Assembly: GCF_050920415.1 (NCBI RefSeq)
Contig: NZ_CP169309.1
Origin: Escherichia coli
GTDB lineage: Bacteria; Pseudomonadota; Gammaproteobacteria; Enterobacterales; Enterobacteriaceae
Strand: one strand, 5' to 3'
Length of the DNA stretch: 64,000 nt
The first letter of the stretch is position 1. Each line of letters begins with the position of its first letter. The position numbers were made by a program, and so were the translations under genes. The notes beneath the pieces are model-generated. The model was not told the DNA's origin. It made no database searches and saw only the letters and a program-made list of their open reading frames with translations. Positions 7,727 to 57,734 of the stretch are shown one piece after another.

Positions 7727-7802
7727 TGGTGGGTCGTGCAGGATTCGAACCTGCGACCAATTGATTAAAAGTCAACTGCTCTACCAACTGAGCTAACGAC
7801 CC
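7727..7802 (-). tRNA. lysV: tRNA-Lys (UUU)
   Basis: 76-nt exact match to recalled E. coli tRNA-Lys sequence (reverse complement), ends CCA. Confidence 0.95.
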
Positions 7803-7806
7803 GAAG

Positions 7807-7882
7807 TGGTGGGTGATGACGGGATCGAACCGCCGACCCCCTCCTTGTAAGGGAGGTGCTCTCCCAGCTGAGCTAATCACCC
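7807..7882 (-). tRNA. valY: tRNA-Val (UAC)
   Basis: 76-nt match to recalled tRNA-Val (GGGTGATTAGCTCAGCTGGGAGAGCACCTCCCTTACAAGGAGG...); third of three tandem copies. Confidence 0.95.
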
Positions 7883-7928
7883 ACTTCGGTACTTCACATT
7901 GTTACAAGAAATCTAGCTGGCGAGAAAG

Positions 7929-8004
7929 TGGTGGGTGATGACGGGATCGAACCGCCGACCCCCTCCTTGTAAGGGAGGTGCTCTCCCAGCTGAGCTAATC
8001 ACCC
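7929..8004 (-). tRNA. valX: tRNA-Val (UAC)
   Basis: Identical tandem copy. Confidence 0.95.
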
Positions 8005-8047
8005 ACTTCTCAATTTCTTGCTACACGGCGGAGACTACATAAGTAGT

Positions 8048-8123
8048 TGGTGGGTGATGACGGGATCGAACCGCCGACCCCCTCCTTGTAAGGGAGGTGC
8101 TCTCCCAGCTGAGCTAATCACCC
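8048..8123 (-). tRNA. valU: tRNA-Val (UAC)
   Basis: Identical tandem copy, 5'-most in the operon. Confidence 0.95.
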
Positions 8124-10821: not shown

Positions 10822-10897
<76 letters not shown>

Positions 10898-10936
10898 AAT
10901 TTTGCACCCAGCAAATTTGGTACGTAAACGACTCGT

Positions 10937-11012
<76 letters not shown>

Positions 11013-29500: not shown

Positions 29501-30739
29501 ATGGCTGACACTCGCCCTGAACGTCGCTTTACGCGTATTGATCGTCTCCCACCCTACGTTTTTAACATTACCGCTGAACTGAAAATGGCTGCGCGTCGGC
29601 GCGGCGAAGATATTATCGATTTCAGTATGGGTAACCCGGACGGTGCGACCCCGCCGCATATCGTCGAAAAATTATGTACGGTGGCCCAGCGACCGGACAC
29701 GCATGGTTACTCCACCTCGCGTGGTATTCCGCGGTTACGTCGCGCCATTTCCCGCTGGTATCAGGATCGTTACGACGTCGAGATCGACCCGGAATCAGAG
29801 GCTATCGTCACCATTGGCTCGAAAGAGGGGCTGGCGCATCTGATGCTGGCGACGCTGGATCACGGTGACACTGTACTGGTGCCTAATCCAAGCTACCCGA
29901 TTCATATTTACGGCGCGGTGATTGCCGGAGCGCAGGTACGCTCAGTGCCGCTGGTGGAAGGTGTCGATTTCTTCAACGAACTGGAACGCGCTATCCGTGA
30001 AAGTTATCCGAAACCGAAGATGATGATCCTCGGCTTCCCGTCGAACCCAACCGCGCAATGCGTGGAACTGGAATTCTTTGAGAAGGTTGTGGCGCTGGCG
30101 AAACGCTACGATGTGCTGGTGGTCCATGACCTGGCCTATGCCGATATCGTCTACGATGGCTGGAAAGCGCCGTCAATCATGCAGGTGCCAGGTGCACGCG
30201 ATGTGGCGGTAGAGTTCTTTACGCTGTCGAAAAGCTACAACATGGCGGGCTGGCGTATCGGCTTTATGGTCGGTAACAAAACGCTGGTCAGCGCGTTGGC
30301 ACGTATTAAAAGCTATCACGATTACGGTACTTTTACGCCGTTGCAGGTGGCGGCGATTGCGGCGCTGGAGGGAGATCAACAGTGCGTTCGCGACATTGCC
30401 GAACAGTACAAACGCCGCCGCGATGTACTGGTTAAAGGGCTGCATGAAGCGGGCTGGATGGTCGAAATGCCGAAGGCTTCGATGTATGTCTGGGCGAAAA
30501 TCCCGGAACCATATGCGGCCATGGGCTCACTGGAATTTGCCAAGAAACTGCTTAACGAAGCGAAGGTCTGTGTCTCTCCAGGGATTGGCTTTGGCGACTA
30601 CGGCGACACCCATGTTCGCTTTGCGCTGATTGAAAACCGCGATCGTATTCGCCAGGCGATTCGTGGAATTAAAGCGATGTTCCGTGCCGACGGTTTACTA
30701 CCCGCCAGCAGCAAACATATTCACGAAAACGCGGAATAA
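29501..30739 (+). CDS. alaC: Glutamate-pyruvate aminotransferase AlaC (YfdZ)
   Basis: 412 aa; PLP-dependent aminotransferase class I with [12 protein letters not shown] lysine motif. Confidence 0.9.
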
Positions 30740-53933: not shown

Positions 53934-54368
53934 ACGTAAACTCTTTCCGGTTGTTGTCGATAGCTCTATATCCCTCAACCGGAAAATAATAATACCAAAA
54001 TGCTTAGCGCGGCTAATAATCGCCTAATCCAAACGCCTCATTCATGTTCTGGAACAGCCGCTCAAATGTACTCAGGATACGCGGTTCGCTGATTTCCAGG
54101 AAATTGTCGTAATTCAGCGACCTGTCCCGTGTATCACGGGCCTGCTAATCCATCAAGGAATGCATTGCGGAGTGAAGTATCGAGTCAAGCCAGATTTCGC
54201 GATCAGGATTCTGTGTGATGATTACATTGCCAGGCCCGGGGCTGTTTAGTCATCGCCGCACAGTGCTGAGATTTCAACCTGTTGCAGGGAAAATGAGTAG
54301 ATTTAGGGCAAGTGTGCTGCCAAACCCAACTTTTACGCGGGGAAGGTAGATTTCGTTGGAAGGATAAA

Positions 54369-54383
54369 TGGTGTCCCCTGCAG
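54369..54383 (-). repeat. att core: 15-nt copy of the 3' end of tRNA-Arg argW (CTGCAGGGGACACCA on the minus strand)
   Basis: Exact match to the recalled argW 3' end; no complete tRNA gene here, so this is the duplicated core at the int-distal prophage junction. Confidence 0.7.
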
Positions 54384-54456
54384 ACATCTACTTGAAGCGA
54401 CAGGGGATTGATTGGAATGGTGTTTTTTAGATGTGAGAAATATTTTACCCGCTATT

Positions 54457-54657
54457 TTACCCATTGGCGCGGCTTAAGAGCTTATTTTTGAATTCACAAT
54501 GGTCACGATATAACCATCTTGCTCGCCCGTGGATAACTTTGGCTTTTGGCAGGTCGCCGGACTTAATCCGGTCATAGATGAAGGTTTTACCAAAGCCAGT
54601 ATCGGCCATGATGAATTTCAAATCAACCAGTGAATCAGGCTGTAGTTCGTGTTGCAT
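54457..54657 (-). CDS. torI: Excisionase / recombination directionality factor TorI (AlpA-like winged helix)
   Basis: 66-aa product MQHELQPDSLVDLKFIMADTGFGKTFIYDRIKSGDLPKAKVIHGRARWLYRDHCEFKNKLLSRANG matches my recollection of KplE1 TorI. Confidence 0.8.
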   Translation of the reverse strand: MQHELQPDSLVDLKFIMADTGFGKTFIYDRIKSGDLPKAKVIHGRARWLYRDHCEFKNKLLSRANG

Positions 54658-55127: not shown

Positions 55128-55227
55128 TTCTTGTCTCCATAAAACAAAACTCGCCGTAGCGAGTTCAGATAAAATAAATCCCCGCGAGTGCGAGGATTGT
55201 TATTCACCTTTAACGGCAAGTTGCAGG

Positions 55228-55896
55228 TTAGCCACGGTTTACCTCCTGAGGCGGTTCTGCTGCAAAATACGCAATACCTTTATCCCAGATGGATTTAATG
55301 GTCGTCCACGTGACTGGTACTTTAATTTCAATCCGCCCGCTACCGTCACAGGTATCGCAATCATCATCGCCAAAGCATTCCGGGCAGCTGATAAACGTAG
55401 TTTCTGAAAATTCACCGGATAGCGCACCCTTAGCGCCGTTCTCGGCTGTTAGTCTCTTCGGCACCATGACCCAACCATCCGGAGTTACCGGAGAGTTGCC
55501 CGACAGCTCGTTCAACTTGTAAGTTTGGCTTACAGGTTCGGCTTCCAGTTCTGCTATGCGTTTTTTTGCTGCTTCCAGCTCAACACGCAGCCTCCCAACC
55601 GTTAGTGCAATATTCTCGTTCTCCTGGTCGCGGTGTTTGATGTATTGCTGGTTTCTTTCCCGTTCATCCAGCAGCGCCTGCACTACTTCAGGGTTGAAAG
55701 CTGCGATATAACGAGCGTTGTTCTCTGCGTTTTTCTGTCCATCAAAGCCGGTCCATTTGATAACGTCTTCACATCGTTTATCACCGGGCGTATGCACCGC
55801 ATACGTACCAGTACCCGGTGAAATAAATGCGGACCATTCGCCTTGTGTTGCCTTTTTTGCTATCTCACGCAGTGCCTGATAGTCAATCTTGCTCAC
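55228..55896 (-). CDS. Ea22-like prophage protein with DnaJ-type CxxCxGxG zinc-finger pair
   Basis: Start placed at the GTG preceded by AGGAGG (the ORF-track ATG would overlap the upstream gene by about 100 nt); coiled-coil middle; CPECFGDD and CDTCDGSG motifs. Confidence 0.55.
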   Translation of the reverse strand: MSKIDYQALREIAKKATQGEWSAFISPGTGTYAVHTPGDKRCEDVIKWTGFDGQKNAENNARYIAAFNPEVVQALLDERERNQQYIKHRDQENENIALTVGRLRVELEAAKKRIAELEAEPVSQTYKLNELSGNSPVTPDGWVMVPKRLTAENGAKGALSGEFSETTFISCPECFGDDDCDTCDGSGRIEIKVPVTWTTIKSIWDKGIAYFAAEPPQEVNRG

Positions 55897-56200
55897 TGGC
55901 TGCCTCCTTTGCTGGGCTTTCGAACTTCTGAGTGGTTGTATCAAACTCAAGCAACTTAACCACGTCATCAAACAGGACATAATCGCCATCAGAATCTTCA
56001 GTCATGTCAGCGCCACAATCCTGACCGAACGAGTCACAACCATCCATATCAAGCTCGTATCGCTTGAGTTTTGCGATATTTGATAAATTCAGCGCCAGTA
56101 CAGCAAGGTCATAAACCTCGTCAGCGGTATACCCGGCACCATGCCCATACATTTCAATGCGGGATATGATTTCTTCTACACGTTGTTTTGTGATCGTCAT
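55883..56200 (-). CDS. Hypothetical acidic prophage protein (105 aa)
   Basis: ORF translationally coupled to neighbours. Confidence 0.5.
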   Translation of the reverse strand: MTITKQRVEEIISRIEMYGHGAGYTADEVYDLAVLALNLSNIAKLKRYELDMDGCDSFGQDCGADMTEDSDGDYVLFDDVVKLLEFDTTTQKFESPAKEAASEQD

Positions 56201-56742
56201 TTTTGCTCACCTCCCTGTTCTTCCAGAAAAATACGCATAGCCTCAAGCATCTCTTCGGTGTCATACGGTGACAACTTGTCACGCAGGATGTGCTCAATGC
56301 TGTTAATGAACTTGCGGATTGCTTTGCGTTCAATTTCAGCCAGGAAAGCATCGGTGGCTGGGGTGTCTGATTGCAGAGACTTTGCGCGATAGTCATTCCA
56401 CCCTCTTGCATACATGGGATTAACTTGCACTCCATCTTTTACGCAATATGCCTGCCCTCCACGGTTGATAACATTGATTTCGTCCATAGCGCCAGCCTTC
56501 AGCCCCGCATTCTCCGCCGCCAGCGCCGAAAACTTCTCGTGTGCCAACTTAACAGCTGCATCAGCCTGCTTAATTGACTCAATCGCTTTCTGGTGGTCTT
56601 CGTACAGAGCCGAAATCTTGGCCTCCGCTTCAGCAAATTTACGCACCAGATATTCAGCGTTTGTTTCGTTAACCTTTAAATCTCGGGGGATGCATTTACC
56701 TTTCAGAAATCCATCCATCTCAATTAGTGACATTTGTTTCAT
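56197..56742 (-). CDS. Hypothetical prophage protein with coiled-coil region (181 aa)
   Basis: ORF; start overlaps stop of upstream small ORF (ATGA). Confidence 0.5.
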
Positions 56743-56903
56743 TTCTTCCCACTCCGCAACATCGCGTTCAGATATTTGTTTTGATTCACTGAAGGAAAAG
56801 AATTTCTCTTAAGCAATTCCTCTCTCGATGGCATTGGCTTTACGCGTTGGCGAATAATCATTTCTGCCGGAAGAATTCCGGGATTGTATGCAAGTCCTCT
56901 CAT
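56739..56903 (-). CDS. Small ORF (54 aa), not in the supplied track
   Basis: ATG preceded by AAAGAGGA RBS, fills the gap between flanking genes, stop overlaps next start (ATGA); product [54 protein letters not shown]. Confidence 0.4.
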
Positions 56904-57245: not shown

Positions 57246-57734
57246 TTATTTGATAAGAAGTGAAGGTTTCCCAACTTTGAGTTGAGCGCCGGGGATATTT
57301 ATTCCTGCTTTTAGTTGGTGTTTGATTGCCAGTTTGTCGGCTTTAATTGTTGTTTCAAACTCAACGTATTCTGGAGGAAGGGCGCTTGAGTCGATGATTT
57401 CTACAGTTTCTGACGGTTTGCGGATTGTTACCTGGTGAATACCTGCTCGAATCTTTTTCTTTCCAACCATTTCAAGCGATGACGCTATATACGTCATAAT
57501 GCTATCAATCTTATTTTGAATTACTGCTGCTCTTTCATTCAGTGACTTTGCCTCTTCCTTGAGGCGTTCAGCATAACCAGACTCATTTTTAATAATGGCA
57601 AGAAGTTGCTCTATTTTATCGGTAAATTCTCCTTCCATGCCTTCTATTGTGTCAGCAATCATCTCTGGTTCTAAATCTGAATCCATCAATTTTGCGTATT
57701 CATTGGCAATTTCATACAGTTTGCTCACTGGCAA
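57246..57734 (-). CDS. Siphovirus Gp157-family protein
   Basis: 162-aa acidic coiled-coil protein immediately downstream of recT; family call from recall of recT-linked Gp157-like proteins. Confidence 0.5.
   Translation of the reverse strand: MPVSKLYEIANEYAKLMDSDLEPEMIADTIEGMEGEFTDKIEQLLAIIKNESGYAERLKEEAKSLNERAAVIQNKIDSIMTYIASSLEMVGKKKIRAGIHQVTIRKPSETVEIIDSSALPPEYVEFETTIKADKLAIKHQLKAGINIPGAQLKVGKPSLLIK

What the first reader, a model, noticed from the sequence alone, without database searches (positions are those of the whole stretch)
55228..55896. Ea22-like early protein with a DnaJ-type double CxxCxGxG zinc-finger and a GTG start
The ORF-track ATG would overlap the upstream gene by about 100 nt, whereas a GTG preceded by AGGAGG gives a 222-aa product with the usual 14-nt overlap. 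The C-terminus carries CPECFGDD and CDTCDGSG motifs reminiscent of DnaJ zinc fingers, after a long coiled coil. The function of Ea22-family proteins is poorly defined.
Basis: partly seen in the sequence, partly recalled or inferred. Interest (0 to 1): 0.3.

Follow-up and report, generated by a model that had tools for sequence, protein, structure and literature searches.

The report
Ea22-family prophage gene, zinc-knuckle tail

Summary
On the minus strand, GTG at 55896 follows AGGAGG plus a 6-nt spacer. It overlaps the upstream gene by 14 nt and gives a 222-aa product. The ATG at 55989 would overlap by 107 nt.

The GTG start is a family-wide trait. Of 41 Ea22-family genes examined, 32 use GTG and 9 ATG at this codon, and lambda ea22 itself uses GTG. 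RefSeq already holds the identical 222-aa protein as "ead/Ea22-like family protein".

The protein has four parts:
- an Ead/Ea22 N-domain (Pfam E=1e-36);
- a roughly 50-residue helix homologous to lambda Ea22's coiled coil;
- a disordered joint;
- an acidic C-terminal module carrying CPECFGDD-D-CDTCDGSG.

The four Cys are invariant in 267 module sequences. The module is under purifying selection (dN/dS 0.05-0.17). It sits at the C-terminus of more than 1,300 protein clusters with very different N-termini, including DUF550, DUF551, Lar and Ea22.

"DnaJ-type" is only a motif-level resemblance. There are two repeats rather than four, so one predicted metal site. All DnaJ-like Pfam models score below threshold (E 0.03-0.08), there is no J-domain, and no fold match was found.

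Best reading: an accessory early-left-operon protein that displays an exchangeable zinc-stabilised binding head on a coiled-coil oligomer. Its function is inferred, not shown. Interest is low.

The parts
55228..55896 (-). ea22-family gene, GTG start, 222 codons plus TAA stop
   Evidence: the identical 222-aa protein P0267 is named ead/Ea22-like family protein in RefSeq
55894..55908 (-). Translation start: AGGAGG (55908-55903), 6-nt spacer, GTG (55896-55894). It lies inside the 3' end of the upstream gene, which suggests translational coupling.
   Evidence: AAAGGAGGCAACCA-GTG is conserved across family members
55699..55896 (-). N-terminal Ead/Ea22 alpha/beta domain, residues 1-66 (helix, three strands, helix)
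   Evidence: Pfam PF13935 E=1e-36; AlphaFold2 pLDDT about 80-87
55540..55692 (-). Long helix, residues 69-119, homologous to the coiled-coil region of lambda Ea22 (LLDERERNQQYIK.RDQENE.IALTVG.LRVELE)
   Evidence: pLDDT above 90; alignment with lambda Ea22; PMC7093339; PMC10834534
55453..55539 (-). Disordered joint, residues 120-148 (AEPVSQTYKLNELSGNSPVTPDGWVMVPKR). Other proteins share this junction peptide in front of different C-terminal domains.
   Evidence: pLDDT below 50; Sf6 gp21 shares the joint but carries another C-terminal domain
55252..55452 (-). C-terminal module core, residues 149-215: LTAENGAK...SGEFSE stretch, strand, Cys loop, strand, helix. Net charge is -7.
55336..55386 (-). 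CPECFGDD-D-CDTCDGSG, with Cys171, Cys174, Cys180 and Cys183: the predicted single C4 metal site
   Evidence: the sequence itself; the four Cys are invariant in 267 of 267 module sequences
55883..56200 (-). Upstream 105-aa gene (phrog_3126) whose last 14 nt overlap the GTG start
   Evidence: (full-length match 1-105 of 105); the same junction is annotated by PGAP in NZ_CP104592
55147..55198 (-). Two tandem terminator-like hairpins just downstream of the stop codon
   Evidence: consensus scan only

Best explanation
Shown:
- This is a genuine ea22-family gene in the N-dependent early-left operon of a lambdoid prophage with a TorI/KplE1/Sf6-type excision module.
- It is translated from the GTG at 55896.
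- It encodes four segments: an Ead/Ea22 N-domain, a roughly 50-residue helix homologous to lambda Ea22's coiled coil, a flexible junction peptide, and a 70-85-aa acidic C-terminal module with four invariant cysteines in two adjacent CxxCxG(x)G knuckles.
- The module is a protein-level selected unit that phages attach to many different N-termini.

Inferred:
- The four cysteines hold one structural zinc ion at the tip of a beta-hairpin that packs on a C-terminal helix.
- The coiled coil oligomerises the protein (tetramer in lambda Ea22) and displays several copies of this exchangeable head.
- Being strongly acidic, the head binds a protein partner rather than nucleic acid.
- By analogy with lambda and Stx-phage Ea22, the protein is a non-essential modulator that biases early development towards lysogeny or host survival.
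For: Identity and start site:
- Pfam 127 bits.
- Start-codon census of 32 GTG and 9 ATG, including lambda.
- PGAP annotates the same start.
- The identical protein is in RefSeq.

Operon context: CI, N, SieB, RecT, Gp157, DUF2737 and TorI.

Architecture: AlphaFold2 models and the alignment with lambda Ea22.

The module is a selected, portable unit:
- 1,332 cluster representatives match at E<=1e-3.
- It is C-terminal in 250 of 266 proteins, and the four Cys plus about 25 other positions are invariant.
- dN/dS is 0.05-0.17 with synonymous sites near saturation between genera.
- Partner domains are DUF551, DUF550, Ea22, Lar and ASCH, or have no Pfam match.
- Downstream genes fall into 25 clusters across 76 loci.

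Charge of the module core is -7.

From the literature: Ea22 proteins combine a conserved N-terminus and coiled coil with C-terminal domains that differ between phages; lambda Ea22 is tetrameric; and deleting ea22 speeds lytic development (PMC7093339, PMC10834534).
Against: - No metal binding, oligomeric state, partner or phenotype has been measured for this protein or for any protein carrying this module.
- The C-terminal model has only moderate confidence (mean pLDDT 69; about 80 in the core) and drops below 50 in the full-length run.
- The most conserved stretch, LTAENGAK..LSGEFSE, is modelled poorly.
- One homologue (ST64B Sb31) lacks the first Cys, so the metal site is dispensable or decaying in at least one phage.
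- The lambda C-terminal domain alone does not reproduce the lambda phenotype (PMC10834534), and the C-terminal domain here is unrelated to lambda's, so transferring the function is weak.
Confidence: 0.55

Rival explanations
1. The tail is a functional mimic of the DnaJ cysteine-rich domain. It would engage DnaK or unfolded clients, acting as a co-chaperone or holdase, or hijacking the host chaperone system that lambdoid replication depends on.
For: - The CxxCxGxG motif is conserved.
- The best PDB sequence hit is the E. coli DnaJ cysteine-rich domain 1EXK (E=0.057).
- hhalign gives 78% probability over 24 columns against DnaJ motifs 3-4.
- RefSeq names some short module proteins "molecular chaperone DnaJ".
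Against: - Every DnaJ-like Pfam model scores far below its gathering score.
- There are only two repeats, one residue apart, whereas DnaJ has four repeats forming two interleaved zinc centres.
- There is no J-domain, G/F region or C-terminal client-binding domain.
- No fold match was found.
- The aligned DnaJ motifs 3 and 4 belong to different zinc centres in DnaJ (established structure of 1EXK).
Confidence: 0.1
2. The cysteine cluster is a redox or metal sensor, or an Fe-S site, rather than a structural zinc site. It would couple prophage behaviour to oxidative stress.
For: - Four invariant, closely spaced Cys.
Against: - The glycines of CxxCxG are conserved as in structural zinc knuckles.
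- There is no similarity to any Fe-S family in Pfam or NCBIfam.
- Nothing was measured.
Confidence: 0.08
3. The tail is a nucleic-acid-binding zinc finger, making the protein an early transcription or replication regulator.
For: - C4 zinc modules often bind DNA or RNA.
- Neighbouring exo-xis proteins include predicted DNA binders and the TraR-like Orf73 (PMC8614690).
Against: - The module core has net charge -7 and the knuckle itself is DDD/D/D-rich.
- No DNA-binding family matched.
Confidence: 0.07
4. The module is conserved only because its DNA serves as a recombination "boundary sequence" between mosaic segments, not because the peptide is functional.
For: - Mosaic break-points fall in and around this gene.
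- Junction peptides are shared between different architectures.
- The Sf6 record annotates a boundary sequence at the start of its ea22-like gene.
Against: - dN/dS is 0.05-0.17 while synonymous sites are near saturation.
- Cys and Gly positions are invariant.
- Downstream genes are not conserved.
- This reading may well apply to the short junction peptides, but not to the module core.
Confidence: 0.03
5. Translation starts at the upstream ATG (55989) and gives a 253-aa protein.
For: It is the longest ORF with an ATG.
Against: - There is no Shine-Dalgarno sequence.
- The 107-nt overlap falls on a gene whose full length is conserved (phrog_3126, positions 1-105 of 105).
- Family profiles start at the GTG.
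- The extension is not conserved in length in relatives, and in some it is only 2-6 codons.
Confidence: 0.03

Closest known systems
Lambda Ea22 and Stx-phage Ea22 (Pfam PF13935, Ead/Ea22-like)
   Same: - Same operon position, between the recombination genes and xis.
- Same GTG start with a strong Shine-Dalgarno site.
- The coiled-coil segment is near-identical to lambda's.
- The N-terminal beta-containing domain resembles the Stx-phage versions.
- Same overall plan of conserved N-terminus, coiled coil and variable C-terminal domain (PMC7093339).
   Different: - The C-terminal domain is unrelated to the lambda C-terminal domain solved by NMR, which is a mixed alpha-beta dimer with no metal (PMC10834534).
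- The protein ends in NRG rather than the K/R-G-E tripeptide noted for other Ea22 proteins (PMC7093339).
- No phenotype is known for this variant.
DnaJ cysteine-rich domain (PF00684; PDB 1EXK)
   Same: CxxCxGxG knuckle motif with conserved glycines, giving marginal sequence similarity.
   Different: - Two repeats instead of four.
- One predicted metal site instead of two.
- Repeats are 1 residue apart rather than 6-19.
- No J-domain.
- Scores are below the family threshold.
Anti-TRAP (PF15777) and other single-site DnaJ-like zinc ribbons (GRXCR1/2 C-terminal domain, PF23733)
   Same: - One C4 site built from two CxxC knuckles, the second being CxxCxGxG.
- The site is followed by a helix.
- Small size. 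Anti-TRAP is known as a protein-binding inhibitor, which I state from general knowledge rather than from a test here.
- Weak Pfam hits at E=0.03-0.05.
   Different: - Scores are far below threshold.
- hhalign probability is only 40% against a sequence I supplied from memory.
- The knuckle spacing is different.
- Oligomerisation and target are unknown.
Boundary sequences of lambdoid and P22-like phages, as annotated in the Sf6 record
   Same: Short conserved sequences lie at mosaic joints in this very gene region. Here, conserved junction peptides flank the module.
   Different: Those features were annotated at gene starts. Here the joints lie inside reading frames and preserve the frame, so whole domains are exchanged.

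Membership tests
Ead/Ea22-like (PF13935) | Matches the family HMM above the gathering score | tested here: met
   127 bits against a cut-off of 27, E=1e-36, profile positions 1-115 of 139
Ead/Ea22-like (PF13935) | Lies in the early-left (pL) operon between the recombination genes and xis | tested here: met
   CI, N, SieB, RecT, Gp157 and DUF2737 lie upstream, and the TorI excisionase lies downstream, on the same strand
Ead/Ea22-like (PF13935) | Central coiled-coil segment shared with lambda Ea22 | tested here: met
   Near-identical LLDERERNQQYIK...LRVELE block; single helix over residues 69-119 with pLDDT above 90
Ead/Ea22-like (PF13935) | Tetrameric assembly and pro-lysogenic phenotype | not testable with these tools
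   Known only for the lambda and Stx-phage proteins (PMC7093339, PMC10834534)
DnaJ cysteine-rich domain (PF00684) | Matches the family HMM above the gathering score | tested here: not met
   13.6 bits against a cut-off of 32.7, E=0.084, and only when the 30-aa motif is scanned alone
DnaJ cysteine-rich domain (PF00684) | Four CxxCxGxG repeats forming two zinc centres | tested here: not met
   Two repeats only (CPECFGDD and CDTCDGSG), and the first lacks the final Gly
DnaJ cysteine-rich domain (PF00684) | Embedded in a DnaJ/Hsp40 protein with a J-domain and C-terminal client-binding domains | tested here: not met
   No DnaJ-related Pfam or NCBIfam hit anywhere in the protein
DnaJ cysteine-rich domain (PF00684) | Binds zinc through the cysteines | not testable with these tools
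   Needs metal analysis of purified protein
Anti-TRAP (PF15777) | Matches the family HMM above the gathering score | tested here: not met
   14.6 bits against a cut-off of 32; hhalign probability 40%
Known anti-phage defence proteins (PADLOC-DB) | Matches any defence-system model | tested here: not met
   No hit at E<=0.01

The most novel reading that the evidence does not exclude
The last 70-85 residues would be an autonomous, so far uncurated protein domain. It would be an acidic, single-site tandem-CxxCxGxG zinc knuckle plus helix, with an equally invariant LTAENGAK..LSGEFSE lead-in. Enterobacterial temperate phages would move it in-frame, through conserved junction peptides, onto more than a thousand different early-protein N-termini. 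In all these contexts it would bind one common host or phage partner, working as a shared targeting or inhibitory head in the manner of Anti-TRAP.
Probability: 0.3. Interest if true: 0.45.

Novelty: new member of a known kind. Interest (0 to 1): 0.15.

Why it matters
For the gene as flagged, very little. The start codon, the family assignment and the protein itself are already in RefSeq.

Two points have modest value.
- The database name "molecular chaperone DnaJ", carried by short relatives of the tail module, is not supported by any family test run here and should not be propagated.
- The tail is a clean example of an unnamed, strongly selected domain that is shuffled among accessory early proteins of enterobacterial prophages. 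It occurs in about 3.5% of complete E. coli genomes, and also in records labelled Salmonella, Klebsiella, Citrobacter and Enterobacter. Finding its partner could give a handle on what the poorly understood exo-xis / "ea" region proteins do.

Tried and rejected
Searches that found nothing useful:
- The afdb50 fold library was not available.
- The PDB sequence search with the full protein gave only a chance coiled-coil hit.
- NCBIfam and PADLOC gave nothing.
- PHROGs matched only families of unknown function.
- The literature search for CXXCXGXG plus prophage returned nothing relevant.

Ideas tested and rejected:
- Relation to the lambda Ea8.5 zinc-finger fold: rejected, hhalign probability 0.9%.
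- A second copy of the module in the window: none found.
- The module being conserved as part of a larger block with the downstream gene: rejected, 25 different downstream gene clusters.

Dead ends:
- Single-linkage clustering of the N-terminal partners lumped almost everything because of mosaic linkers and was uninformative. It was replaced by a Pfam census.
- The ACS Omega 2020 Ea22 biophysics paper (PMC7271347) is not held.

Not done:
- The roughly 530 weaker hits (E between 1e-10 and 1e-3) of the representative search could not be listed, so the distant limits of the module family remain unknown.

Full report
**1. What is there**

The finding concerns a minus-strand ORF.
- The longest form runs from ATG 55989 to the TAA stop at 55230-55228 (253 aa). 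An in-frame GTG lies at 55896.
- Read on the coding strand, the sequence is AAAGGAGG-CAGCCA-GTG-AGC-AAG-ATT-GAC. That is a perfect AGGAGG (55908-55903), a 6-nt spacer, and GTG.
- The upstream gene (55883..56200, 105 aa) ends with TGA at 55885-55883. The GTG form therefore overlaps it by 14 nt and the ATG form by 107 nt.
- Nothing resembling a Shine-Dalgarno site precedes the ATG.
- The GTG product is 222 aa.
- Its C-terminal part contains CPECFGDD-D-CDTCDGSG (residues 171-187, window 55386-55336).
- A tandem pattern of this kind occurs once in all six frames of the window and in none of 100 shuffles.

**2. The start codon**

Four independent lines agree on GTG 55896.
- Family profiles begin there. 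Pfam PF13935 aligns its position 1 to the residue after the GTG, and PHROGs 368 and 60 align their position 1 to the GTG codon itself.
- The upstream 105-aa protein matches its PHROG end to end (1-105 of 105). The 107 nt that the ATG form would claim are therefore already coding in another frame.
The codon directly before S-K/E-I-D/N-Y-Q-A-L-R is GTG in 32 and ATG in 9. The motif AAAGGAGGCAACCA recurs upstream. The in-frame upstream extension varies from 2 to 73 codons, so in several relatives no earlier start is possible. Phage lambda's own ea22 starts with GTG (L007).
- NCBI's pipeline annotates the GTG start with the same 14-nt overlap at a 98%-identical junction in NZ_CP104592, and a GTG start in NZ_AP043606.

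The identical 222-aa protein is already in RefSeq and GenBank as "MULTISPECIES: ead/Ea22-like family protein [Escherichia]" (P0267, for example EGE63672.1).

**3. Family and context**

- PF13935 (Ead/Ea22-like) scores 127 bits against a cut-off of 27.
- Upstream on the same strand lie a CI-type repressor (62019..62732), an N antiterminator (60331..60714), RecT (57712..58623), Sipho_Gp157 (57246..57734) and DUF2737 (56739..56903). SieB lies on the other strand.
- Downstream lie a 114-aa protein of unknown function and a TorI-type excisionase (54457..54657), followed directly by the chromosomal sucrose-permease gene.
- This is the early-left operon of a lambdoid prophage, which is the position of ea22 in lambda.

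**4. Architecture**

AlphaFold2 on an alignment of 143 relatives gives the following:
- an alpha/beta N-domain over residues 1-66, pLDDT about 80-87;
- one uninterrupted helix over residues 69-119, pLDDT above 90;
- a disordered stretch over residues 121-150;
- a poorly modelled C-terminal part.

The helix carries LLDERERNQQYIKHRDQENENIALTVGRLRVELE. This is almost identical to the lambda Ea22 segment that published work treats as the coiled coil of a tetrameric protein (PMC7093339, PMC10834534). My own heptad count is only moderately supportive.

Modelled alone with 40 module sequences, the C-terminal part reaches mean pLDDT 69, about 80 over residues 30-80 of the module. Its topology is strand, Cys loop, strand, helix. 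The two CxxC knuckles therefore sit together at the tip of a hairpin. That fits one C4 metal site.

**5. The C-terminal module**

This is the only part that is not routine.
- A search of 1.84 billion cluster representatives with the last 88 residues finds 1,332 proteins at E<=1e-3 and 246 at E<=1e-30. The 150 listed are 69-100% identical over the module, although each represents a different 50%-identity cluster. Their other parts therefore differ.
- In 266 retrieved proteins the module is C-terminal in 250. The four Cys, the FG, the T-C-D and S-G positions, and a preceding LTAENGAK..L.GEFSE stretch are invariant or nearly so.
- A Pfam census of 146 representatives finds DUF551 in 11, DUF550 (dATP/dGTP pyrophosphohydrolase) in 9, Ead_Ea22 in 6, Lar in 2, and DUF3850, ASCH and DUF5490 in one each. 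The rest show nothing.
- Where the module is internal, it is mostly followed, through another conserved linker, by a DUF551-like domain.
- In 80 IMG/VR loci the host genes range from 132 to 392 aa, and the downstream genes fall into 25 clusters. The module is therefore not riding on a larger conserved block.
- Codon comparisons between the window and copies in E. coli and in phages of Salmonella, Klebsiella and Enterobacter give dN/dS of 0.05-0.17, with synonymous sites near saturation. The peptide, not the DNA, is under selection.
- The module core (228 nt) is found in 189 of 5,426 complete E. coli genomes. There it is annotated variously as hypothetical, ead/Ea22-like, DUF550, DUF551 or "molecular chaperone DnaJ". 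Names also show it in Salmonella, Shigella, Klebsiella and Citrobacter.
- One copy, ST64B Sb31, has Phe in place of the first Cys and LA in place of FG.

**6. Is it a DnaJ-type zinc finger?**

Only at the level of the motif.
- Scanned alone, the module gives sub-threshold hits to three families that share the CxxCxGxG knuckle: Anti-TRAP (14.6 bits against a cut-off of 32), GRXCR1-2_C (14 against 26) and DnaJ_CXXCXGXG (13.6 against 32.7).
- A profile search of PDB sequences ranks the E. coli DnaJ cysteine-rich domain first, but at E=0.057.
- hhalign against that domain gives 78% probability over 24 columns. It aligns the two knuckles to DnaJ motifs 3 and 4 with a 5-residue gap.
- In DnaJ those two motifs belong to different zinc centres, and four motifs are needed. 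Here there are two, separated by a single residue.
- The protein has no J-domain or other DnaJ part.
- No structural neighbour was found in the PDB or BFVD.
- The module is unrelated to the lambda Ea8.5 zinc fold.

I therefore describe it as a single-site, DnaJ-like CxxCxGxG knuckle pair. It is not a member of the DnaJ cysteine-rich domain family. The RefSeq name "molecular chaperone DnaJ" on short relatives is not supported.

**7. How it most likely works**

Shown:
- the identity of the gene, its start and its operon;
- the four-part architecture;
- that the tail is a selected, portable unit.

Inferred:
- the cysteines hold one structural zinc;
- the coiled coil oligomerises the protein, as in lambda Ea22, and displays several heads;
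- the head, with net charge -7, binds a protein rather than nucleic acid;
- the protein is a dispensable early modulator of the lysis-lysogeny balance, as reported for lambda and Stx-phage Ea22, where deletion gives faster induction and more progeny (PMC7093339, PMC10834534).

The published picture already says that Ea22 proteins keep the N-terminus and coiled coil and swap C-terminal domains. This protein fits that picture with a C-terminal domain type not discussed in those papers.

The rivals are listed in the rival-explanations section with the evidence for and against each: a DnaJ/DnaK mimic, a redox or Fe-S site, a nucleic-acid finger, pure DNA-level conservation, and the ATG start. The last two are essentially excluded.

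**8. Domain shuffling through junction peptides**

- The stretch AEPVSQTYKLNELSGNSPVTPDGWVMVPK between the coiled coil and the module recurs in Sf6 gp21, in front of a different C-terminal domain, with 39 nt at 97% identity.
- NZ_AP043606 carries an extra 42-aa insert between the two halves of this joint.
- Internal modules are linked to DUF551 by APQSPGSEPATVPGKWIPVSE, and many proteins end in PQEVKGE/NRG.
- Mosaic break-points in database comparisons fall at these places.
- The Sf6 record annotates a "boundary sequence" at the start of its ea22-like gene.

In-frame exchange at conserved linkers is thus the likely source of the module's many partners. This extends a known idea rather than introducing a new one.

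**9. Verdict**

The gene is an ordinary, already annotated member of a known family. The uncharacterised and widely shared zinc-knuckle tail is a small loose end worth a biochemical look. Interest is 0.15.

Noticed in passing
window 55147-55198 (minus strand): Two tandem terminator-like hairpins with T-runs sit between the stop of the ea22-like gene and the next gene of the same operon. They are presumably read through under N antitermination.
   Followed up: no
window 53934-54657: The TorI-type excisionase (54457-54657) has no integrase next to it. The chromosomal sucrose-permease gene cscB ends only about 520 bp away. This fits the layout in the Sf6 record, where the annotated attP core lies between the TorI-type xis and intS, so int would end up at the other end of the prophage.
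   Followed up: partly
L003 (Salmonella phage ST64B) 1928-2761, gene sb31: This copy of the zinc module has Phe in place of the first Cys and LA in place of the FG of the first knuckle (FISFPECLADEECESCDGSG). It is the only homologue seen without all four cysteines, and may be decaying.
   Followed up: no
window 55453-55539; also L001 3422-4213, L008 1006-1686, and proteins P0175-P0263: Conserved junction peptides flank different domains in many early prophage proteins: AEPVSQTYKL, GNSPV(T/I)PDG(W/Y)VMVP, APQSPGSEPATVPGKWIPVSE and a PQEVKGE/NRG tail. This suggests in-frame domain shuffling at these linkers.
   Followed up: partly
L007 (phage lambda NC_001416) 29847-30395: Lambda's own ea22 starts with GTG. 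Across 41 family genes, GTG outnumbers ATG by 32 to 9 at the start codon, always with a strong Shine-Dalgarno site inside the preceding gene.
   Followed up: yes
window 56197-56742 (minus strand): The 181-aa protein two genes upstream matches the C-terminal half of phrog_368, and the ea22-like protein matches that family's N-terminal half. In other phages the two are therefore parts of one protein. It also gives weak coiled-coil-type hits (Mu Gam, SngA).
   Followed up: no
RefSeq proteins such as WP_343214974.1, WP_244449199.1 (P0049 and P0074 clusters): Short prophage proteins of 137-174 aa that carry this module are named "molecular chaperone DnaJ" in RefSeq and GenBank, although they have no J-domain. 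The name looks like over-annotation from the CxxCxGxG motif.
   Followed up: partly
window 59770-60714 and 62019-62732: The immunity region carries a SieB superinfection-exclusion gene on the plus strand, next to an N-antiterminator gene and a CI-type S24 repressor. This is a standard lambdoid layout.
   Followed up: no
window 7727-8123 and 10822-11012: tRNA clusters (Lys-UUU, three Val-UAC, two Ala-GGC) lie far from the prophage and are unrelated to the finding.
   Followed up: no
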